A DNA stretch of 64,000 nucleotides from an uncultured Candidatus Binatia bacterium (lineage in GTDB: Bacteria > Desulfobacterota > Binatia > Bin18). The stretch spans positions 2,176,001 through 2,240,000 of the forward strand of contig OZ241744.1 in the NCBI GenBank assembly GCA_965200965.1. Reading direction: 5' to 3'. How positions within the stretch are numbered: the stretch's first letter is position 1; each line of letters starts with the position of its first letter. A model generated the notes under the pieces. The model was not told the origin of the DNA. It made no database searches and saw only the letters and a list, made by a program, of their open reading frames with translations. The position numbers were made by a program, and so were the translations under genes. Below are positions 39,326 through 50,658 of the stretch, piece after piece.

Positions 39326-39401
39326 TCCTCGGTAGCTCAACCGGCAGAGCAATCGGCTGTTAACCGATGGGTTGTAGGTTCGAATCCTACCCGAGGAGCC
39401 A
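39326..39401 (+). tRNA. tRNA-Asn(GTT)
   Basis: 76 nt, tcctcgg/ccgagga acceptor stem, anticodon loop ctGTTaa, GGTTCGAATCC, CCA. Confidence 0.96.
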
Positions 39402-39436: not shown

Positions 39437-40815
39437 GTCTGGTTGACCCCGCCGTCTCCAAGTCGTTATATTCTGCGACCGCATCGCTGACAGCGGTAGT
39501 TGGGTCTGGTTGACCCCGCCGTCTCCAAGTCGTTATATTCTGGCGACCGTGGGCGGGGGCTGCGGATGGCGTCTGGTTGACCCCGCCGTCTCCAAGTCGT
39601 TATATTCCTCTGCAAAGCCCCAACCGCGAGGGTCGCTGTCTGGTTGACCCCGCCGTCTCCAAGTCGTTATATTCCCGGCGGCGGGGGAGTACGACCCAAG
39701 CCCCGTCTGGTTGACCCCGCCGTCTCCAAGTCGTTATATTCACCGGCCTACGACTACGCCACCGCCCATGCGGTCTGGTTGACCCCGCCGTCTCCAAGTC
39801 GTTATATTCCCGGCCAGCCCGCGTCCAGCGGCAATGTCCGTCTGGTTGACCCCGCCGTCTCCAAGTCGTTATATTCGCCATTGAGCGCTGGGCCAACGGC
39901 CGAACGGTCTGGTTGACCCCGCCGTCTCCAAGTCGTTATATTCCTGGCCCTCGAGCTCCGTGCCGCGGCCGTGGTCTGGTTGACCCCGCCGTCTCCAAGT
40001 CGTTATATTCGTCAGCGAAAGTGTCACCGGAGATCATACGGTCTGGTTGACCCCGCCGTCTCCAAGTCGTTATATTCACCGGGGGGGGACGCCCCCCCAC
40101 CCAAAATGTCTGGTTGACCCCGCCGTCTCCAAGTCGTTATATTCCAGCGGCGTTCCGTGGACCATCAACTAATTGTCTGGTTGACCCCGCCGTCTCCAAG
40201 TCGTTATATTCTGCAATCGGCGCTGATGCGGAGTGTGGCCCGTCTGGTTGACCCCGCCGTCTCCAAGTCGTTATATTCTGCAATCGGCGCTGATGCGGAG
40301 TGTGGCCCGTCTGGTTGACCCCGCCGTCTCCAAGTCGTTATATTCCGTAGTAGTCTGCGTCGTTCACGATGTTCTGTCTGGTTGACCCCGCCGTCTCCAA
40401 GTCGTTATATTCCGTAGTAGTCTGCGTCGTTCACGATGTTCTGTCTGGTTGACCCCGCCGTCTCCAAGTCGTTATATTCCGTAGTAGTCTGCGTCGTTCA
40501 CGATGTTCTGTCTGGTTGACCCCGCCGTCTCCAAGTCGTTATATTCCGTAGTAGTCTGCGTCGTTCACGATGTTCTGTCTGGTTGACCCCGCCGTCTCCA
40601 AGTCGTTATATTCACCAAGATGCGTGTGGAGGCAGGAGCCGAAGTCTGGTTGACCCCGCCGTCTCCAAGTCGTTATATTCTCATTTTGGCATAGTCTCCG
40701 TCGGACTTCCTGTCTGGTTGACCCCGCCGTCTCCAAGTCGTTATATTCGATCGTCGGGGGCTTGGCGAGTACATGGATGTCTGGTTGACCCCGCCGTCTC
40801 CAAGTCGTTATATTC
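39437..40815 (+). CRISPR. CRISPR array: 21 identical 37-bp repeats (gtctggttgaccccgccgtctccaagtcgttatattc), 20 spacers of 30-31 bp, 16 unique
   Basis: Counted directly. + orientation inferred from tracrRNA complementarity, a TATATT -10-like box at the repeat 3' end, and a downstream hairpin. Confidence 0.98.
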
Positions 40816-40882: not shown

Positions 40883-41188
40883 CTAGAGAAGAACCAGTTG
40901 AACAGGGCGTGGGCTCTCCCTATGCTTACCCCCATTCCAGATGGTCATCATCCGCCCCATCTGCTTCTCGGTAATTTGCAAAACCGACACATGGCCCTTC
41001 TCTGGGCACAGAGCGACGAGCTTGGTAAGCTCCCGCTCGCTCCGGTCTGGCGTACCCACGAACTTGCGGTACACCGAGAACTGCATCATCTCATAGCCGC
41101 GTTTGCGGATGTCATTGTGAAAACGTGTGTATGCCTTGCGGCCCTCTGGGTTGGCTACAGGAAGGTCGTAGAAGACGAGCAGCCACAT
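40883..41188 (-). CDS. cas2: CRISPR-associated endonuclease Cas2
   Basis: MWLLVFYDLP, GYEMMQFSVY, ITEKQ; 101 aa from ATG 41188. Confidence 0.95.
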   Translation of the reverse strand: MWLLVFYDLPVANPEGRKAYTRFHNDIRKRGYEMMQFSVYRKFVGTPDRSERELTKLVALCPEKGHVSVLQITEKQMGRMMTIWNGGKHRESPRPVQLVLL

Positions 41189-41210
41189 GTAACGCGGCCT
41201 TCCCGAAACT

Positions 41211-42113
41211 TCAGGAGAGGAACGGGCAATCTGGATAGCGGACCCGTGTCTCGCGGCCGTCTTCAAGAAACTCTCGATATCCACGCACCACTTCCAGCAC
41301 TGCCCGCTTTACCGGCCCGTCATTCGCAAATGGCTCTAATATCGCTGACTTCACCGCTTTCTGGTCAATGCCGTCCGTGTCGCCTACTCCGAGTGTCACC
41401 GCCGCATCCACGGTCGGGCGGAAAGGCTCCATCAGGTCGGAAGCGAGCGCCCAGGCGTTGGTGCGAGAGGCATGACCAAATCCCAGCGACGGGTCACAGC
41501 CAAGCGCCACAAGGCCGCGCCCCACAGTTGCCAGCAGAACGGCATACCCCCAGTTCAGCAGGCCATTACGCGGGTCATCCTGGTCCGAACGCTTGAAATC
41601 ACTGAACAGACCACGCCAATAGATCGCAGCCGCCTGAGCCTCAACTGTCTCCTGTCCATCCAGCCCCACCTCGTCGGCCAAGCGTCGGACCCGCTGAGCA
41701 CCCCGCGCACCGACCTGTGCCAGGAGCGCCGCCTGTGCCATAATTTTCGCCTGCACGGTGCGCCGCCACAGCCGACGGGCAGCGGCCTGACCCCGCAAAG
41801 CGCGGACTTGGATGCGATGGACTTGTCCGGCGTTCCATCCCGCACTAACCGGCAGAGACAGCGAGACCGGAAGATGCTGCCGGCAAAAAATGACTGGGAT
41901 ACCGCGCTCACCGCAGGCCGCAAGCACCGCGGATGTCACCGTCGCCCGCTCGGTTTCCAGCACAACCGCCAGCACATCGCCGGACGGGAGCGTTACCCGG
42001 CCAGCCTTGTCGCGTCTTTCAACGACGAAGCTATTTGCCTCGAAGCGGATATGGCACCGGCTGGATACCTCCAGGAGCCTTTCCGCGCCTGTGAAGTCGT
42101 CTGCCAAGGACAT
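41211..42113 (-). CDS. cas1: Type II CRISPR-associated endonuclease Cas1
   Basis: EAQAAAIYW, NGLLNWGYAVL, LGFGH, LASDLMEPFRP. Confidence 0.95.
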   Translation of the reverse strand: MSLADDFTGAERLLEVSSRCHIRFEANSFVVERRDKAGRVTLPSGDVLAVVLETERATVTSAVLAACGERGIPVIFCRQHLPVSLSLPVSAGWNAGQVHRIQVRALRGQAAARRLWRRTVQAKIMAQAALLAQVGARGAQRVRRLADEVGLDGQETVEAQAAAIYWRGLFSDFKRSDQDDPRNGLLNWGYAVLLATVGRGLVALGCDPSLGFGHASRTNAWALASDLMEPFRPTVDAAVTLGVGDTDGIDQKAVKSAILEPFANDGPVKRAVLEVVRGYREFLEDGRETRVRYPDCPFLS

Positions 42114-45100
42114 CGCTGCGAAACTTGACTATATTGTTGTCAGGTGTAATCTGCTGTTTCTGTTTCTTTTCACGGGCGGCTTCGTTCACTGGGTAGGCGA
42201 TCAACCGCTTGTCCGCTCGCAGACCGGTTACGACAAAAGCCTTCCTTTCTTTGTTATTGATGACTATATCACCGGACCGGTACACCGGACGCTCTTTCGG
42301 GAAAATGTCGGCGCGTTTCTCGGCATTCATCCGGGCGAACTCGGCGACCGAAATGACCCGCCGGTCTTTGGCGTTTGGCGCGCCAACCACGGCGAACTTG
42401 CCTTCAGCGTTGATGAAAGCGCCCTTTTGACCGGACAGGGAGAGAACTGTTTGGAATCCCAACGGCCTTTTCAGGCCGCGATACCCGACCTTGATTTTCT
42501 TGTCTTGCTGCTCTTTGAGGCGCTTCCTTTGCAGCGTGTCAGTTGGAATCTCCTCGTATCGGGTCAGAATCTCTCTCCCTCCTGGAATGTTCTCGCCGTC
42601 CGGGGCCAATCTTTCCTTGCGGAGAAGTTTCGTCAACTCCTTTCTCGTTTCCCATGTCAGCGAGTAGATATTCCCTCCTCCAAACGCCCCGAGTCCGCTG
42701 CCCATCTTGTCGCCAGGGTTCCAGCGGTTGTCCGCACGATGGGCTGTGTGGATAGTCGGCAGCGTCTGTTCAAGCCGGACGAGGTTGTCCTGAAAGTCCC
42801 TGAACAACCCCTTACCGCCGTTGATCTGATCCAAAGCCGCCTGCAAAGCGCGGGGCTGGTACAGTTCCTCATAGGCGTGTGCATGGCCCAGCCGGTCGAA
42901 GGCAGCCTTGAGAACATGGCTGTCGAAATGGGCCACCAGAAACGCATCAACCGCGTGGTTGCGGAGATCGGAGCGGTCTTTATTGATGCCGAACATGCAG
43001 CGTAGCGCATAGACCGCCCACGCCTTGATCGGCTCGGTTTCTGCCCCAAGGTGGCGCAGATAACGCCGGGCGAGCTTGGTGGACCAGCCGATATTGGCGA
43101 TATCGCGCGCTGCTGGGCCGCCCTTGCGCGGCGTGTAGCCGGGACGACAACGACGGAACAGGGCGGCTTGGTCTTGGGGCCGGAATGGCTGCGCTCCCTT
43201 GCGGCTCGCTCCGCCTCCCTCCTCTGCGTCTGTACCCGGAATGACCGGCGGCCTTTCCAGAGCCTTGAGCACATCGGGGCGCGGTTCACCAAACTCAGCG
43301 AGCCGCTCAAGGTTCTGACGCGCCTGAGTCCGTCTCTCTTCAAGGCGTCCCCGCCTTGGGGAATTCCTCGTCAGTCCGCCAAGCACTTTTTCGATCCCTT
43401 TAATCTGACTGCACAGACCAAAGGTTGCAAACGCTACGAGAGCGGGCTGGAAGCCGGGGTCGTGGCTGAAGGCTTCCCACGGTAGGCACCGGCCTTTCTG
43501 TTGATTGAACCGCGACACGAAAATGTTATTTTCGCGGAAGTCGCCAAACGCGGCCGGCTCAACATGGTCAAGCTGGTATTCGCTGCCATCCACCAGCGCG
43601 CTTGGCTGGATATCGCTCCCGTCGTAGTCCCGCCAGCCTTGACGGACCGCGGCTTTCCAGCAGTCTACCAAGCGGTCAAGCGTAGGACCGGCCGGCATCT
43701 TTTCACCGAGAACCTTCTCGATCCCAGCTTTAATGTCCTTGCGCAACTTCTCGCGGGCACGGTTCGTCTTATTATAGTCCGCAGCTTGCGCCTCTGAGAA
43801 GGTTGAGCGGGCCATCTCGATAGCGCACCGCGTCGGCAGAATACCGCCCATCATCTCGATAATGGCGTTCACCACGGCCCGCAGTCGGTTCATAACCACA
43901 TGCACATCAGGGTTGGCCGCCCGCCCATACTGCTGTTCCTCTGCCACCGTTCGCTCCTCGGGCGCGAACCCCGTCGCCGGGACAATCTCGTCCGGCATGA
44001 CTTGGCCGTAATAGGGAAGCCGCTCATAGATCTCGAGTACTGGTTTCCGCGCTCCCCGTTCCCGGAGTTTGCGGAGATGTTCATCGTGGTCCAGCCCTTG
44101 CGCGTAGCAGTCGCCGAGCAGACGGGCAGCTTTGACAGATATTGATGAAAACCTGTCTTCAAGTTTCTTTGCGACCTTTGCCCGGTCCACCTTTTCCAGC
44201 GCGTCGGGGCCGAACTCTGCCGCGGCCTTGCGCTCCAGGGCTTCGGTGTCGGACTTTTTCCAGGGCGGCAACTTCCCGTCGCTGGCCGAAGGCCAGTGTC
44301 GGCGCAGGAACCGCATTGTCCAGTCATCGCGTTGCTCAATGGGCAGACTGCTCCACGCCTCTCCCAAGGCTCCACCAAGCGCGGCATCGGTTTTGGCTCC
44401 TACCAGTCGCCGCGTCCCAGAGCGGTCGCCCCGGTCGAGTTTCAATTCAATCTCAAGCTCCCTGGAAAGTTCGTTGAGGCTGACCGCCTCACTTGCCGAG
44501 AGAATATCGATCACCCTGTTGAATCTCGCCCTATCAAGGGGCTTTCCACCCTGGTCGCGCAGGGTGTCCGCCTGCTCCAGGCTGCGGAACCACTGGAAGC
44601 TCGGCAGGGCGGCAACACAACGGTACTCGTGGGGGAAATAGCGGCATCGGCCCGGCGTTTTGGTCTGGAGCGGTCGCCTGAACTCCGCGGCCTCTTCAAT
44701 ACGCGCCCAGGCATCGTCATCAATCTCGATTCCCGATGCCTTCCTCAGCATCTCGCACTCCTCATGGATCAGGGAGAAGGTCGGGGTCAGGAACTTGAAC
44801 GCTTCATAGCTCGGCGCGTTGCCGCCGTCCTTCGGCTTCTTCTTCCTGTTCTCCTTCTGCCACGCGAGAGAGCAGTGACGCTTGCGAAACGGAACCTTGT
44901 CCCGTCTGGCATCGCTAGCGCAACGCTCCAGAAACTCGCCGATTGTTCGACAGTCATACTGCTTGATCGCTTGGCAGTAGTCGTCCTCGGTCCGCGTAGC
45001 GAAGCCTGATCCTTCGTCCGGTCCGGCGCGGCCAATGGGTTTCAAGTAGCCGCGACGTTTCAAGGTATTGTATAAAGCCCGCCCTAGGTCGTGGGGATGG

Positions 45101-45654
45101 ACGGAGAACGAGGGGTCAAGCAGCTTGGCCCGAAGCACGTCCGCCTTGATATTGACTTGTCCCTTGGGATATTCGCCCTCTTTGGGCAGCAGCCCGGCAT
45201 TTTGCAGGGCCTTCTTGACGTACAGGCGTCGCCGTTGACGGGCGTCTAACGTGCGGCGCGCTGCCCTGGCCTCCGCGCGAATTTTCGAGAGCGACTTGTC
45301 CGCCTTCTCATGTCGTTCTCGGGCGTCGAACTTGTGCGTACCCAGCGGCACAAAGCCGGGGAGGTCGGGAAGCTGTGTGCGGGTGGCCGACTTCGGCAAC
45401 GTGCGGTTATGGTCGGCAATATCCTCCGCGGTCAGAAAATGCAGGCGCTTGCCATCCTCGAAAAGGATGCACCAGCCGATATTGCCGTTGCCGATGTCAA
45501 AGCCAATGCGGTAGCCGGTAAACGTTCCGAGATTGGCTTTTCTCGTTGAACGCCGCCGCGGACCGGCCGCGGTGTCTACTTCCTCTTGAAACGCCGCGTC
45601 CTCATAATCTTCGGACCGACGATCTATGCGGGCAAATGGCTTCATATCCTCCAT
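42031..45654 (-). CDS. cas9: Type II-C Cas9 (about 1207 aa), divergent
   Basis: RuvC-I GFDIGNGNIGW, Arg-rich bridge helix, KRRGY, RuvC-II IEMAR, HNH LDHVEP..N..NQQKG, RuvC-III RNHAVDA; no csn2 or cas4; start chosen by ggag RBS. Confidence 0.93.
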   Translation of the reverse strand: MEDMKPFARIDRRSEDYEDAAFQEEVDTAAGPRRRSTRKANLGTFTGYRIGFDIGNGNIGWCILFEDGKRLHFLTAEDIADHNRTLPKSATRTQLPDLPGFVPLGTHKFDARERHEKADKSLSKIRAEARAARRTLDARQRRRLYVKKALQNAGLLPKEGEYPKGQVNIKADVLRAKLLDPSFSVHPHDLGRALYNTLKRRGYLKPIGRAGPDEGSGFATRTEDDYCQAIKQYDCRTIGEFLERCASDARRDKVPFRKRHCSLAWQKENRKKKPKDGGNAPSYEAFKFLTPTFSLIHEECEMLRKASGIEIDDDAWARIEEAAEFRRPLQTKTPGRCRYFPHEYRCVAALPSFQWFRSLEQADTLRDQGGKPLDRARFNRVIDILSASEAVSLNELSRELEIELKLDRGDRSGTRRLVGAKTDAALGGALGEAWSSLPIEQRDDWTMRFLRRHWPSASDGKLPPWKKSDTEALERKAAAEFGPDALEKVDRAKVAKKLEDRFSSISVKAARLLGDCYAQGLDHDEHLRKLRERGARKPVLEIYERLPYYGQVMPDEIVPATGFAPEERTVAEEQQYGRAANPDVHVVMNRLRAVVNAIIEMMGGILPTRCAIEMARSTFSEAQAADYNKTNRAREKLRKDIKAGIEKVLGEKMPAGPTLDRLVDCWKAAVRQGWRDYDGSDIQPSALVDGSEYQLDHVEPAAFGDFRENNIFVSRFNQQKGRCLPWEAFSHDPGFQPALVAFATFGLCSQIKGIEKVLGGLTRNSPRRGRLEERRTQARQNLERLAEFGEPRPDVLKALERPPVIPGTDAEEGGGASRKGAQPFRPQDQAALFRRCRPGYTPRKGGPAARDIANIGWSTKLARRYLRHLGAETEPIKAWAVYALRCMFGINKDRSDLRNHAVDAFLVAHFDSHVLKAAFDRLGHAHAYEELYQPRALQAALDQINGGKGLFRDFQDNLVRLEQTLPTIHTAHRADNRWNPGDKMGSGLGAFGGGNIYSLTWETRKELTKLLRKERLAPDGENIPGGREILTRYEEIPTDTLQRKRLKEQQDKKIKVGYRGLKRPLGFQTVLSLSGQKGAFINAEGKFAVVGAPNAKDRRVISVAEFARMNAEKRADIFPKERPVYRSGDIVINNKERKAFVVTGLRADKRLIAYPVNEAAREKKQKQQITPDNNIVKFRSDVLGRRLHRRGKAPGGIQPVPYPLRGK

Positions 45655-45754
45655 ATCCTGTTCTCCATATCCTGCGAGCGGGTCTACTATAGCGACTGAG
45701 CCCCAGCCCTGGAAGCAGCCTGTTGACATTGCCCCGGTATTCCTGTTAAGTGGT

Positions 45755-45886
45755 CAAGACGACTTGGAAACGGCGGAGAGTCAACCCGATAAGGGTTCTC
45801 CCGAGAGATGATCGGTCCAGCGCCGCGGCAACGGACCATCCCCGGCATACCCGGGCGAAGGCCGACCTGATTCGGGTCGGTTTTTT
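45755..45886 (+). ncRNA. tracrRNA
   Basis: Anti-repeat acgacttggaaacggcggagagtcaacccga (45759-45789); TTGACA at 45723; terminal hairpin ccgacc/ggtcgg plus T6 (45862-45886). 5' end approximate. Confidence 0.88.
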
Positions 45887-45910
45887 GTTGTGCGTGTAGT
45901 CTGAGCCCTG

Positions 45911-46002
45911 CCGCATGGCGGGAGCATTAGACGGAATCAAAATCCTGGAACTGACCCGGGTGGGGCCGGGGGCATTCTGCACCATGATGCTGTCCGACAT
46001 GG
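45911..46002 (+). repeat. 92-bp copy of the caiB-like gene 5' end (49443-49534)
   Basis: 89/92 identical by direct comparison. Confidence 0.92.
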
Positions 46003-46127
46003 ACGCCGGGATTGCCGCCCTCGAACGACGACGGGACAAGACCCGCTGCGTCAAGCAGGGCATGATGCCGCAGCTCCCGACCGGGCGGGTGCGGCTGGGC
46101 GAGCCGGTGGAGAAGGTGCAGAACTGA
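46003..46127 (+). pseudogene. hsdS: C-terminal remnant of type I R-M specificity subunit HsdS
   Basis: SDMDAGIAALERRRDKTRCVKQGMMPQLPTGRVRL resembles the conserved HsdS terminal helix; fused in frame to the caiB fragment. Confidence 0.75.
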
Positions 46128-46145
46128 CGCGCTACAGAGGCACTG

Positions 46146-47693
46146 ATGCTTGAGCGGCGTTTCAAGAAGCTCTGGGAGCAGTTGCAGGGCAAAAAACTGC
46201 ATATGCCGCACTTTCTGGCGGAAATCTCCCTCAAAGGCATTCGCGGCATTGACGACCTGCGGGTGCTGTTTGATTACCCGGTCAGCGTCATCGCCGGCGG
46301 CAATGCCAGCGGCAAGTCCACCGTGCTGTTCGCCGCGGCCTGCGCTTACAAGGTTCCGGGAGCCGGCGTCAAAGACTTTGTGCCGTCCACCCTGTTTCCC
46401 GACTATCGCCCCAGAGCGGGGCAACGCCAAGACCACACAGGCGAGATTGTCATTGCGTTTGGCTATGACACGCCCGAGGGCCGCCAGGCCATGCGCTGGC
46501 GGCGGTCCAAAGGCTGGAATCGCAGCTTTCTGGGCCGCAAGAACGCCAGCCAGCCGGAGCGGCCGCTCTATCTCAGGACGCTCAGCAATCTCAGCAACCC
46601 GTCCGAGGTGCGCGGCGTGCTCAGCATGTCGCGCCTGACTGCACTGCCGCAAGAGGCTCCCCTGACGGCCTCACAAATTGAGTTCGCCCAGCAGATGCTG
46701 CCCTTCAGCTATGCCGAGGTCGTCAATCTGTCGAGCGGCACGAAAAACCTGCTGTTTGCCGCCCAGCAAAGCGGCGCGGCCTACTCCGAGTTGCACATGG
46801 CCTCTGGCGAGCGCACCCTCCTGCGGCTGGCACGGGAAATCGCCCAGCTCCGGGGTGCGCTGGTGCTGATTGACGAGGTGGAAGCCGGGCTGCACCCCTG
46901 GGTCCAGCAGCTCCTCATGTTGCAGTTGCAGCAGCTTGCCCTGCGGAACGACCTCCAGATCATCGTGACTTCCCACAGCCCGGTCGTGCTTGACTCGGTG
47001 CCGGCCAACGGGCGCATCTTCCTGGAGCGCGACGAGCAGGGCCGGGTAAGCGTCCGCCCGGCCTACCGCGATATTGTCCAAGATGCCCTGTACGGCCGCT
47101 CGGGCGACGCCCTCAACCTGCTCTGCGAGGACGCCGCGGCCGAAGGGCTGCTGCAAGGCGTTTTTGATGTCTTGCTCCGCCGCCAACGCATCCGGCGGGA
47201 GTCGGTCCGCATCGGGCGAGACACCGGGGCCGGCGAGTTTCCCATGCACGCCACCGCCTTCCGAAAATTCGGCCAGATCGGCAACTTCGTCTTTGTGCTT
47301 GACGGCGACAAGCGCAACAGCGACATTGCCGGCAAGATACACGCGCAAGCCAAACAGGATATCTCGATCCTCTATCTTCCCGGCTCCGACGGCCCGGAAG
47401 TCTGGGTATGGGACCGCCTGCGGCACAACCCGGCCGCAGCCGGGGAATTGCACCTCGATCCCGCCGAACTGTCCGAACGCATGACCCGGCTGGACGCCGT
47501 CTATGACACGGCTTCCGACCCGCCGGCAGCAATAGCCAAGGCCAAGCTGCGCGGTCTGGCCGAACCCCTCGGCCGGGACACACCGGACCTCTGCCGGGTC
47601 CTTGCCCGGCTGGAGGCGGACCGACAAGACAGCGACATCCAGCCCCTGGTGGAAGGGCTGGAAAACGCCCTCCTGCAATGGCGCACCGAGTAG
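46146..47693 (+). CDS. ABC-type ATPase fused to a TOPRIM-like domain (OLD-like ATP-dependent nuclease)
   Basis: GGNASGKST, MASGE, LIDEVEAGLHP, TSHSP; then LLCED and VLDGD. Confidence 0.8.
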   Translation: MLERRFKKLWEQLQGKKLHMPHFLAEISLKGIRGIDDLRVLFDYPVSVIAGGNASGKSTVLFAAACAYKVPGAGVKDFVPSTLFPDYRPRAGQRQDHTGEIVIAFGYDTPEGRQAMRWRRSKGWNRSFLGRKNASQPERPLYLRTLSNLSNPSEVRGVLSMSRLTALPQEAPLTASQIEFAQQMLPFSYAEVVNLSSGTKNLLFAAQQSGAAYSELHMASGERTLLRLAREIAQLRGALVLIDEVEAGLHPWVQQLLMLQLQQLALRNDLQIIVTSHSPVVLDSVPANGRIFLERDEQGRVSVRPAYRDIVQDALYGRSGDALNLLCEDAAAEGLLQGVFDVLLRRQRIRRESVRIGRDTGAGEFPMHATAFRKFGQIGNFVFVLDGDKRNSDIAGKIHAQAKQDISILYLPGSDGPEVWVWDRLRHNPAAAGELHLDPAELSERMTRLDAVYDTASDPPAAIAKAKLRGLAEPLGRDTPDLCRVLARLEADRQDSDIQPLVEGLENALLQWRTE

Positions 47694-47845
47694 CGCCTCG
47701 CGGTCTTTTTCCGACCGTTTTTTAGTCGTACAATTGTCGCCATAAAACCGGAGCAACGCCACATCGAGACGATGTGGCACCTGCGGAGCTCCAGATGTCG
47801 CCGGCTTGACAATGCCGGCCCTACACCGGGCGTGACAAAAACAGT

Positions 47846-48079
47846 CGCTACAACGGCAAGAGCCACGAGCATACCAACCATATCGAAGACGAGACATTCT
47901 ATGATTTTCACATACACCTCGCAACGGAACGCTACCAACAGCGTGGAACGCGGGAGGACGCCTACGCCAAGCCAACCAACCGTTACGATGACTTTTCCAG
48001 CGCCCTTCGTTGCCTGATTGCCGACGCCAATCTTGAGGCCCCGTCCGATCCACAGGGGAACCTCTTTGAGGAGGGGTGA
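47846..48079 (+). pseudogene. 5'-truncated His-rich gene preceding the DUF1828-like gene
   Basis: Open frame RYNGKSHEHTNHIE..FYDFHIHLATERYQ..EDAYA ending 3 nt before the next gene; upstream in-frame TGA and no start; absent from the ORF track. Confidence 0.6.
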
Positions 48080-48082
48080 GCA

Positions 48083-48859
48083 GTGGCCCTAGAGACCATA
48101 GAGCAGGACTTTCGCCAAAAAGTTTCCGCAAAGGTAGGTCTGGTAGCCGAAGGCGTGGACCGCTTCCGCGTCTTCACCCCCTTCCTGTTCGAGGATGGCG
48201 ACCACCTGTCTATCGTCCTGAAAAAGGAAGGGGCGCGGTGGGTGCTCTCCGATGAAGCGCACACATACATGCACCTCACCTACGACATTGAGGAGAAAGA
48301 CCTCCACAGCGGCACACGCCAGAAGATCATCTCCAACGCGCTGTCCACATTCCGGGTCGAGGATCGGGAGGGAGAGTTGACGCTCGCCGTACCAGATGCG
48401 CGGTACGGTGACGCGCTGTACTCCTTTGTCCAAGCCCTGCTCAAAATTGCTGACGTGTCATACCTGTCGCGGGAACGGACGCGGTCCACATTCATGGAGG
48501 ACTTTCGGACATTGTTGAGTGAGGCCGCCCCGGAAGAACGCCGAGACTTCGACTGGAGCGATCCTCAACATGACCCCCGGGGAAAGTACGCCGTGGACTG
48601 TCGGATCAATGGGATGCCCCGCCCGCTTTTCGTTCATGCCCTTGCCAATGACGACAGGACCCGCGATGCCACGATAGCGCTGCTCCAGTTCGAGAAATGG
48701 GAGATTCCGTTCCATTCCCTGGCTATCTTTGAGGATCAGGAGTGCATCAATAGAAAAGTGCTGGCCCGTTTCAGCGATGTTTGTGAGAAGCAGTTCTCCA
48801 GCCTCACCGCGAACCGCGAAAGGATCGCCCGCTTCCTGAGCGAGAGCATTGCGGGATGA
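48083..48859 (+). CDS. DUF1828-like protein
   Basis: [27 protein letters not shown]; C-terminal VDCRIN nuclease-like segment. Confidence 0.7.
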
Positions 48860-48922
48860 AAGCGGTGCAAAGCAGGGGGGACACACCTGCCCTCACCCAA
48901 ACCTGAGCCTGGAGGAGATGCT

Positions 48923-49366
48923 ATGAGCGCAGTCGGCCAGCCGGAGATCCACACCCGGCGGCGCGTGATTGCGTTCTTCCAAGAGGCGCTCGGCTACGCC
49001 TATCCTGGCAACTGGCGCGACCGGCCCGACAACCGCAACATTCAGCTTGGCAACCGGCTGCCGGCGCTCCTGGCCACATGGCAACACAAGGCCGGCGTGA
49101 GCGTTCATGACATGAGGATCAAAAAGATGAAGACCCGCTGGGGCTCCTGCAACGTCACGGCTCGGCGTATCTGGCTGAACCTGGAGCTGGCAAAAAAACC
49201 GCAGGCCTGCCTGGAATACATCCTGGTGCATGAGCTTATCCACCTGCTCGAGCCCGGCCACACCGCTCGCTTTCACGACCTGATGGACAGCCTCATGCCG
49301 CACTGGCGCTCATGCCGGGACACCCTCAACCGTGCCCCGCTCGCTCACGCGGACTGGCCCTACTAG
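48923..49366 (+). pseudogene. Deletion chimera: HsdR N-terminus fused to YgjP/M48-like metalloprotease C-terminus
   Basis: MSAVGQPE..RVIAFFQEALGYAYPGNW (HsdR-like) then MKTRWGSC..LNLEL..YILVHELIH (HExxH); ggagga RBS. Confidence 0.7.
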
Positions 49367-49446
49367 GCAGCGCAGCCTGCCCTACTAGCCCTCTTTGGCG
49401 GCCCTGCGCTATAAGGGCCCGGAATCACTGCCACAAGGAGGACCGC

Positions 49447-50658
49447 ATGGCGGGAGCATTAGACGGAATCAAAGTCCTGGAACTGACCCGGGTGGGGCCG
49501 GGAGCATTCTGCACCATGATGCTGGCCGACATGGGCGCTCAGGTGCTCAAAGTTGAGGCCCCGCCGTCGGGCAAACTGGCCGGCTCGGGCGCTTCGCCCA
49601 CGCCTGACCAGGCCAGGAAACTGGCCACCAATTTCACCAACCGGAACAAGAAGAGCGTCACCCTCAACCTGAAAGAAGCGGCGGGGCAGGCCATCCTGCA
49701 CAATCTGGCCACAGACTATGACGTGCTCGTCGAGGGCTTCCGGCCGGGGGTCATGCAACGCCTGGGCGGCGATTATGCCACCCTGAGCGAACTCAACCCG
49801 CGCCTCGTGTACTGCTCGCTCAGTGGCTTTGGCCAGGACGGCCCCTATCGGGACTATCCGGCCCACGACCTGAACTATCTCGCCCTCGCCGGTGTGCTGG
49901 GCCTGATCGGTCAGCCCGAAGGACCGCCGGCCATTCCGCTCAACATCATCGCCGACTACGCCGGTGCCTCCATGCACGGCGTGACAGGCATCATGTTTGC
50001 CCTGTTTGCGCGTGAGCGGACCGGCAAGGGCCAGCTCGTTGATGTGTCCTATCTCGACACCACTATCTCCCTGCTGGCGGCCACGCCCAATGTCCGTGAC
50101 TATTTTGCCGAGGGGACCCTGCCCGGCCGGGGCAAGGGCGTGTTTGGCGGCGGCTTTGCCTATTACAGTGTGTACAACACCAGGGATAACAAGCAGTTGA
50201 GCATCGGCTGTACCGAGCCGTGGCTGTGGCATAATCTGTGTGATGCGCTCGGCCGCCCGGACTGGAAAGACTGCGGCATGCAGGCCGGCGACTTCTCGCA
50301 GACCACGACCGACCGCCACCAGCAGGTGCGCCGGGAACTCCAGGCCGTGCTGATGACCAAAACCCGCGACGAGTGGTATGAACTCCTGACCAGGGCCGAT
50401 GTGTGTGTCGGCAAGGTCTACGATGTGCCCGAGGTCTTTGACGACCCCCAGGTCCGCCACCGGCAGATGGCGGTCGAGCTCGACCATCCCCAGGCCGGCA
50501 AGGTCGTCCAGGCCGGGGTAGCGGTCAAACTGTCCGATACCCCGGGCGCTATCCACTCCTTTGCCCCGTCAATCGGCCAGCACACCCAAGAGGTCCTGGG
50601 CAGCCTCGGCTACAGCGCGGCTCAAATCGCCGAACTGCGCGACAAACGAGTGGTGTAA
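49447..50658 (+). CDS. CaiB/BaiF family CoA-transferase
   Basis: LADMGAQVLKVE, NRNKKS, EGFRPG, SGFGQDGP, HDLNY. Confidence 0.95.
   Translation: MAGALDGIKVLELTRVGPGAFCTMMLADMGAQVLKVEAPPSGKLAGSGASPTPDQARKLATNFTNRNKKSVTLNLKEAAGQAILHNLATDYDVLVEGFRPGVMQRLGGDYATLSELNPRLVYCSLSGFGQDGPYRDYPAHDLNYLALAGVLGLIGQPEGPPAIPLNIIADYAGASMHGVTGIMFALFARERTGKGQLVDVSYLDTTISLLAATPNVRDYFAEGTLPGRGKGVFGGGFAYYSVYNTRDNKQLSIGCTEPWLWHNLCDALGRPDWKDCGMQAGDFSQTTTDRHQQVRRELQAVLMTKTRDEWYELLTRADVCVGKVYDVPEVFDDPQVRHRQMAVELDHPQAGKVVQAGVAVKLSDTPGAIHSFAPSIGQHTQEVLGSLGYSAAQIAELRDKRVV

What the first reader, a model, noticed from the sequence alone, without database searches (positions are those of the whole stretch)
42031..45729. Divergent type II-C Cas9 with intact catalytic motifs but non-standard architecture
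Seen: RuvC D/E/H/D and HNH D-H..N residues are all present. Unusual parts are an acidic-then-basic extension of about 45 aa before RuvC-I, an insert between RuvC-I and the bridge helix, a roughly 100-aa insert between HNH and RuvC-III, GWRDYDG in place of the usual CxYxG, AFGGGNIY where LHxxTxY is typical, and a C-terminus overlapping cas1 by 83 nt. Array, tracrRNA, cas1 and cas2 are all present, so it can be reconstituted. That it is a new clade with a new PAM is inference.
Basis: partly seen in the sequence, partly recalled or inferred. Interest (0 to 1): 0.75.

Follow-up and report, generated by a model that had tools for sequence, protein, structure and literature searches.

The report
Uncharacterised, structurally remodelled Cas9 lineage
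This is a complete bacterial CRISPR-Cas9 immune locus whose Cas9 belongs to a small, untested lineage with three conserved extra pieces and a shortened cutting domain; it likely still cuts DNA, but its target rule is unknown.

Summary
The observation mostly holds. The window has an intact cas9–cas1–cas2 locus, a 21-repeat array and a divergent tracrRNA. The Cas9 belongs to a discrete lineage: 63 clusters at 37–78% identity, then a gap to ordinary II-C Cas9s (22–27%, N-terminal half only). Cas1 shows the same gap. All RuvC and HNH catalytic residues are conserved, and HNH is the segment under strongest purifying selection (dN/dS 0.065, one pair). The ~40-aa N-terminal extension and 26-aa RuvC-I insert are lineage-specific, more conserved than the whole protein, and predicted folded. 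The post-HNH insert is about +64 aa net, not 100, and is a predicted helical hairpin plus a variable linker. The real start is probably M26 or M29. I found no PAM. One member is already catalogued, as a singleton missing from the active-nuclease table (MG6-22, Alexander 2023 supplement); I found no characterisation. The scan had no earlier finding on this sequence. Verdict: new variant of type II-C, likely an active nuclease.

The parts
42031..45729 (-). cas9 longest ORF (1232 aa); likely real start M26 (45654) or M29 (45645), giving 1204-1207 aa
   Evidence: (TIGR01865 188.5 bits, cut-off 100)
45514..45645 (-). lineage-specific N-terminal extension (res 29-72): strand, acidic helix, Arg-rich stretch; predicted folded
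   Evidence: (pLDDT 82-96)
45496..45498 (-). RuvC-I catalytic D78
   Evidence: D in 61 of 63 rows, 2 gaps
45364..45456 (-). RuvC-I insert (about res 92-122, +26 aa net): strand-helix-strand, predicted folded
   Evidence: (pLDDT 95-97)
43816..43818 (-). RuvC-II catalytic E638
   Evidence: 63 of 63
43465..43659 (-). HNH domain (res 691-755) with GWRDYDG, D721, H722, N735, N742; His-to-Asn spacing 20 instead of 23
   Evidence: dN/dS 0.065
43120..43449 (-). post-HNH insert: predicted two-helix hairpin (res 761-785, 791-813) followed by a variable, low-confidence linker
   Evidence: (dN/dS 0.77)
42946..42957 (-). RuvC-III H925 and D928
   Evidence: H in 58 of 63, D in 59 of 63
42664..42687 (-). AFGGGNIY motif at the position of the phosphate-lock loop (that name is recalled); Asn replaces the usual Thr
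   Evidence: the preceding loop has pLDDT < 50
42031..42113 (-). 83-nt overlap of the cas9 C-terminal tail with the cas1 start; similar overlap in the other loci
41211..42113 (-). cas1, type II / NMENI family, forming its own discrete lineage
40883..41284 (-). cas2 (likely start M33 at 41188)
39437..40815 (+). CRISPR array: 21 x 37-nt repeats, 20 spacers (16 distinct); crRNA sense inferred to be the + strand
45759..45886 (+). predicted tracrRNA: anti-repeat 45759-45790, nexus-like and second hairpins, terminal hairpin with T run
39326..39398 (+). tRNA-Asn(GTT) directly beside the array

Best explanation
This is an intact type II-C CRISPR-Cas9 locus whose Cas9 belongs to a separate, long-branch lineage and is likely an active tracrRNA:crRNA-guided DNA nuclease, with lineage-specific inserts predicted to be structural add-ons rather than new enzymes. 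Inferred working: Cas1-Cas2 add 30-nt spacers. The array is read on the + strand, likely from TAnnnT boxes inside the repeats. The divergent tracrRNA pairs with each repeat. Cas9 then cuts matching invader DNA next to an unknown 3' PAM, HNH on the target strand and RuvC on the other. The N-terminal extension and RuvC-I insert likely form one module on RuvC, and its Arg-rich part likely contacts RNA or DNA; the helical hairpin likely sits on the HNH linker. Shown: genes, residues, conservation, lineage, repeat/anti-repeat complementarity. Predicted: fold. Not shown: expression, cleavage, PAM, what the inserts do.
For: Catalytic residues are conserved across 63 lineage rows. HNH has the lowest dN/dS of 10 measurable segments, 0.065, against the 77% identical orthologue in L001. 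The profile alignment is colinear with ordinary II-C Cas9 end to end (probability 100). The AlphaFold model has pLDDT 84.4 and pTM 0.83, with best Foldseek matches Nme1Cas9 and SaCas9 (E 1e-25) and VIA Z about 21 to St1, Hpa and Nme1 Cas9. cas1 and cas2 follow cas9 in 13 of 14 fetched loci (L010 is a 2-kb fragment), and arrays occur in 9 of 14 (the other five are contigs of 2-5.5 kb). The tracrRNA is conserved, with compensatory pairs (12 of 24 predicted pairs) and anti-repeats that change with their repeats. Related arrays carry different spacers, and two sponge-metagenome runs show spacers absent here. No shared accessory gene was found across 9 loci.
Against: No activity or expression data. 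The HNH core is 3 residues short, and its model confidence is only moderate in the full model (pLDDT 65-82) and poor when folded alone (41-56). 4 of 14 distinct loci have a frameshifted cas9 (L009, L010, L011=L013, L014), L006 has an insertion in cas1, and one contig in run X5 has a 1-nt deletion in cas9. The dN/dS rests on one sequence pair. The cognate repeat:tracr duplex was not always the most stable in the cross table (for example L001).
Confidence: 0.75

Rival explanations
1. The shortened HNH core and the hairpin arm change how HNH docks, so the enzyme is a nickase or makes an offset (staggered) cut rather than a standard blunt break.
For: His-to-Asn spacing is 20 or 22 in all 50 measurable lineage proteins against 23 in 69 of 69 outgroup proteins. 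The extra hairpin lies exactly between HNH and RuvC-III. The Thr at the phosphate-lock position is replaced by an invariant Asn.
Against: All HNH catalytic residues are kept and HNH is the most constrained segment. The model still superposes on complete Cas9s.
Confidence: 0.15
2. The lineage has been turned to a non-cutting or regulatory role, such as RNA-guided binding or repression, with the conserved N-terminal module serving that role.
For: The N-terminal module is more conserved than the rest of the protein (for example 63% vs 48% in P0051). No protospacer was found in viral or phage collections.
Against: Both nuclease centres are intact, Cas1, Cas2 and variable arrays are kept, there is no accessory gene, and no full self-target was found for the spacers. 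Spacer 2 matches a spacer of the genome's type I-E-like array (27 of 30 nt), which points to a shared foreign target.
Confidence: 0.05
3. The locus is a decaying relic, and its oddities reflect relaxed selection.
For: Frameshifts in 4 of 14 distinct loci, an insertion in cas1 of L006, a single-repeat array in L060, and tandem spacer duplications here.
Against: 53 of 63 lineage proteins are full-length. The inserts are shared across 37-78% identity. dN/dS is 0.43 overall. Contigs of run X1 match the window's cas9 with no differences over 41436-45940.
Confidence: 0.05

Closest known systems
Type II-C CRISPR-Cas9; nearest by sequence are the ~1000-1100 aa II-C proteins such as P0065 and the plasmid Cas9 of Pseudosulfitobacter pseudonitzschiae (26% over res 49-732)
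   Same: cas9-cas1-cas2 order with no csn2 or cas4, NMENI-type Cas1, 30-nt spacers, divergent tracrRNA, colinear RuvC/BH/REC/HNH/WED/PI.
   Different: About 150-200 aa longer: +40 N-terminal, +26 in RuvC-I, +64 after HNH, and a C-terminal tail read through the cas1 start. HNH core 3 residues short, CxY replaced by WRDY, Thr replaced by Asn at the phosphate-lock position. Single-sequence similarity is not detectable after HNH.
Nme1Cas9, SaCas9, St1Cas9, GeoCas9 (solved structures)
   Same: Same bilobed fold: Foldseek E 1e-25, VIA Z 20-22 with 580-800 residues aligned.
   Different: Only 14-20% identity and rmsd 5-12 A. No solved structure of this lineage exists among the PDB hits.
MG6-22 (Alexander et al. 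2023, CRISPR J, PMC10278012, supplementary Table 1)
   Same: Reads identical, by eye, to lineage member P0035 (54% identical to this protein) over the 400 N-terminal and 133 C-terminal residues displayed.
   Different: It is the only member of its similarity cluster (144) and is filed under MG6, whose neighbouring rows belong to another cluster (42). It appears once in the file, in Table 1, not in the PAM/sgRNA Table 2, and 'MG6' is absent from the main text.
Subtype II-D (Cas9d) and variant II-C2 (Makarova et al. 2025, PMC12669027, passages read)
   Same: Also divergent type II effectors.
   Different: II-D loci carry cas4, which this locus lacks, and the Cas9d model scores 40 bits against a cut-off of 375. 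II-C2 is phage-encoded with a dead RuvC, whereas this RuvC is intact and the locus is chromosomal with an array.
IscB with its N-terminal PLMP domain (recalled; a lead only)
   Same: A short folded N-terminal module before RuvC-I.
   Different: No Pfam hit supports homology, and residues 29-130 match only lineage members. An analogy at most.

Membership tests
Cas9 (type II effector) | Split RuvC (D, E, H, D) with an inserted HNH and an Arg-rich bridge helix | tested here: met
   TIGR01865 188.5 bits vs cut-off 100, and 22 of 22 members hit it. The Pfam HNH_4, Cas9_a and RuvC_III cut-offs are not reached.
Cas9 (type II effector) | tracrRNA with an anti-repeat complementary to the array repeat | tested here: met
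   Duplex -48.4 kcal/mol here and -43.6 to -56.0 in 7 other loci; conserved hairpins. Predicted, not seen as RNA.
Cas9 (type II effector) | RNA-guided, PAM-dependent dsDNA cleavage | not testable with these tools
   Needs biochemistry; no protospacer or PAM recovered.
Subtype II-C | cas9-cas1-cas2 only, no csn2 or cas4 (definition recalled) | tested here: met
   Only 67 nt lie between cas2 and the array here. In 2 of 9 array-bearing loci a DUF222-HNH gene sits there instead.
Subtype II-C | Cas1 of the II/NMENI family | tested here: met
   TIGR03639 194 bits vs cut-off 120.
Subtype II-C | Cas9 groups inside the II-C branch of a rooted Cas9 tree | tested here: inconclusive
   The tree held only the lineage and its 61 nearest unnamed relatives, with no II-A, II-B or II-D root. 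Nearest relatives and folds are II-C-like.
Subtype II-C | Repeat-embedded -10 promoter box (recalled from Neisseria II-C) | tested here: inconclusive
   The repeats of this array and of the 9 other array-bearing loci end in TAnnnT-C; transcription was not measured.
Subtype II-D | cas4 in the adaptation module and a Cas9d-family effector | tested here: not met
   No cas4; NF049971 40 bits vs cut-off 375.
Variant II-C2 | Inactivated RuvC, phage-encoded, no array | tested here: not met
   RuvC intact, array present, no relative in viral contigs.

The most novel reading that the evidence does not exclude
This is a distinct type II-C variant that has evolved as a whole module (Cas9, Cas1, repeat, tracrRNA). 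It has gained a new N-terminal RuvC-attached domain, functionally like IscB's PLMP, and a helical arm that, with the shortened HNH core, changes cut geometry or fidelity. It would then be a Cas9 with a new cleavage pattern and an unsampled PAM.
Probability: 0.2. Interest if true: 0.75.

Novelty: new variant of a known kind. Interest (0 to 1): 0.5.

Why it matters
Cas9 is heavily mined, yet this lineage falls below all Pfam Cas9 cut-offs and several public members are labelled 'hypothetical protein'. I found no test of any member. It breaks an otherwise fixed HNH spacing while keeping HNH under strong selection, and it carries a conserved module seen nowhere else. It is therefore a natural experiment on how far the Cas9 nuclease lobe can be remodelled, and a ready-to-test source of a new PAM: repeat and tracrRNA are identified for at least 8 loci. 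At about 1200 aa it offers no size advantage.

Tried and rejected
PAM search, all negative or unreliable. The window array against GenBank phages gave no match. Five IMG/VR scans with single spacers gave four blanks and one 18-nt hit that does not extend and was rejected as chance. Arrays were searched against 301, 50 and 44 genomes and against handle genomes; the hits had 3-6 or more mismatches, and none was trusted. Spacer 2 overlaps a spacer of the genome's I-E-like array, but that does not reach the 3' flank. Two spacer-spacer overlaps gave 3' flanks CGCCAGAT (L012) and CAGCCTCG (L013/L005), from different Cas9s and too few to use. Reads laid on the array gave no protospacer contigs. No RNA holder was listed. 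Natural split Cas9: three loci change frame near res 760-860 (P0002 numbering), but each by a different indel, and a close relative (L005) is intact, so rejected. Fold of the post-HNH insert: generic two-helix hairpin, best Z 6.6 with no standout. ESM Atlas: the whole protein returns generic Cas9 clusters; residues 1-110 gave only leads under 0.9. The promoter/terminator scan found nothing at its thresholds, and the lone tracr region is not unusually stable (z -0.99). A larger tree timed out. Literature: main-text searches found no description of the lineage. Motif searches of supplements were blank for PMC12669027, PMC12996302, PMC10910872 and PMC9755519, and in PMC7606464 gave only an unrelated hit. 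In those files cells over 400 characters are cut, some PDFs were unreadable, and Zenodo data files, the alignment file of PMC10278012 and patents were not seen; any of these could list more members.
Full report
Locus. The - strand ORF 42031-45729 encodes 1232 aa. It scores 188.5 bits on the Cas9 model TIGR01865 (cut-off 100) but reaches no Pfam Cas9 cut-off. Downstream lie cas1 (41211-42113, overlapping cas9 by 83 nt), cas2 (40883-41284) and, 67 nt further, an array of 21 identical 37-nt repeats with 20 spacers, ending 38 nt from a tRNA-Asn. Upstream and divergent, 45759-45886 holds an anti-repeat that pairs with the + strand repeat (-48.4 kcal/mol) and ends in a hairpin plus T run. The crRNA sense is therefore inferred to be + and the PAM 3' of spacers read on +. 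The first ATG is probably not used: most homologues start at M29, the database protein starts at M26, and M26 has a GGAG 8 nt upstream. Contigs of run X1 match the window with no differences from 41436 to 45940, and related strains occur in sponge metagenomes.

A discrete lineage. The 90%-cluster search returned 80 proteins: 63 at 37-100% identity (62 besides this one, at most 78%), then 17 ordinary Cas9s at 22-27% over about half the length. The filter-free search of 50% representatives found five near-full-length lineage clusters plus fragments, and outsiders at about 30% whose best stretches end at HNH. A FastTree tree of 120 proteins (59 lineage, 61 nearest outsiders; 4 short rows left out; 888 columns) separates them by branches of 1.01 + 0.47 with 100 SH-like support, but it has no II-A, II-B or II-D root. 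Cas1 shows the same pattern: 63 hits at 47-98%, then six full-length hits at 40-43% and one partial hit at 53% over 46% of the length. Named carriers are Candidatus Binatia, Gammaproteobacteria and Alphaproteobacteria MAGs. In the host's family 3 of 55 genomes have it. Of 7 congeners, one has the array at the same tRNA-Asn site, five have other sequence there, and one was not read. This patchy spread suggests lateral movement (inference). No relative was found in viral contigs.

Architecture. A global profile alignment of 53 full-length lineage proteins against 125 outsiders is colinear end to end. Motif-anchored medians, lineage vs outgroup: N-terminus to RuvC-I Asp 49 vs 9; Asp to the next RuvC strand 52 vs 26; HNH His to RuvC-III His 205 vs 141; RuvC-III His to the end 316 vs 314. 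The regexes matched 50-53 of 53 lineage and 69-107 of 125 outgroup proteins. New here: HNH His-to-Asn spacing is 20 (45 of 50) or 22 (5 of 50), against 23 in 69 of 69; 23 is also the SpCas9 H840-N863 spacing (recalled). Residues 29-130 match only lineage members (63 hits at E <= 1 among 284 candidates, 60-100% identity) and are more conserved than the whole protein. The conserved C-terminal tail is read in another frame over the cas1 start, so its conservation may reflect cas1; dS is 0 there.

Structure. AlphaFold2 on residues 29-1227 with 66 sequences gave pLDDT 84.4 and pTM 0.83. The extension (82-96), RuvC-I insert (95-97), post-HNH helices 761-785 and 791-813 (81-94) and tail (90-93) are confident. 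The HNH core is 65-82, and the loop before AFGGGNIY is below 50. The best matches are Nme1Cas9 and SaCas9 (Foldseek) and St1, Hpa and Nme1 Cas9 (VIA Z 20-22, rmsd 5-8 A). Folded alone, the hairpin persists, HNH does not (41-56), and the hairpin has only generic matches. I had no coordinates, so contacts between the inserts and the active-site geometry were not measured.

Is it active? In 63 lineage rows: D78 in 61 (2 gaps), E638 in 63, D721 in 62 (1 N), H722, N735 and N742 in 63, H925 in 58 (3 gaps, 2 other) and D928 in 59 (3 gaps, 1 other); I did not check whether the deviants are truncated products. Against the 77% identical orthologue in L001, dN/dS is 0.43 overall, 0.065 in HNH, about 0.3 in the extension, RuvC parts and bridge helix, 0.48 in WED/PI and 0.77 in the post-HNH insert (one pair). 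Thirteen of 14 fetched loci have cas1 and cas2, and 9 have arrays with related repeats. Their tracrRNAs share hairpins with compensatory changes, and anti-repeats change with the repeats. No accessory gene is shared across 9 loci. Against activity: 4 of 14 distinct loci have frameshifted cas9 and one has an interrupted cas1, which may be decay or assembly error.

PAM. None recovered (see Tried and rejected). The only informative match is spacer 2, which shares 27 of 30 nt with a spacer of the genome's 222-repeat type I-E-like array (subtype judged from the recalled repeat form), suggesting that both systems met the same invader.

What is known. From passages of Makarova 2025 (PMC12669027), type II now has II-D (with cas4) and variant II-C2 (phage, dead RuvC); neither fits. 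Passages of PMC10910872 describe II-C2 only. The supplement of Alexander 2023 (PMC10278012; passages and supplement searches read) lists MG6-22, which reads identical by eye to P0035 over the displayed parts. It is the sole member of its cluster among about 4,480 rows and is absent from the PAM table. Supplement motif searches of four other papers were blank, and one (PMC7606464) gave an unrelated hit; of PMC12996302 I also read the abstract. Seven main-text searches found no description. Unseen data files and patents may hold more. The scan's own index had no look-alike.

Verdict. It works like, and meets the testable criteria of, type II-C. It is an uncharacterised, structurally remodelled lineage, already touched once by a mining study. 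Likely an active nuclease (0.75). New variant of a known kind; interest 0.5.

Noticed in passing
window 45911-49442: A small defence-like island (ATPase similar to PADLOC HEC-04 at 46146-47693, DUF1828/PDC-M24B-like gene at 48083-48859, YgjP-like peptidase at 48923-49366) sits in front of a CoA-transferase gene whose first 96 nt are duplicated (45911-46006 and 49443-49538). L001 lacks the island.
   Followed up: partly
G000:C1:1689412-1698694, 2072250-2073862, 2819954-2833461, 3365835-3372590: The genome has four further CRISPR arrays of other repeat types (128, 23, 222 and 87 repeats).
   Followed up: partly
window 40212-40576: Spacer 12 is present twice and spacer 14 four times in tandem; read-contig depth about 5 times the gene depth fits a real expansion.
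   Followed up: partly
L003:12816-14534 and L006:16377-17915: A DUF222-HNH gene lies between cas2 and the array in two gammaproteobacterial loci, probably a mobile insertion.
   Followed up: partly
L009, L011=L013, L014 (cas9 res ~760-860, P0002 numbering): Three of the four frameshifts seen fall in or near the post-HNH insert, each by a different indel; the clustering is unexplained.
   Followed up: partly
L030 (G043:C1:809813-809848): A lone near-copy of the repeat lies about 128 kb from the array, just before an ORF; possible orphan repeat or regulatory site.
   Followed up: no
window 45723-45728 and the matching place in 9 loci: A TTGAC-like box is conserved upstream of the tracrRNA and overlaps the first ATG of the long ORF; likely the tracrRNA -35 element.
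   Followed up: partly
run X5, window 45278: One contig (depth 7.7) has a 1-nt deletion in cas9: a broken strain allele or an assembly error.
   Followed up: no
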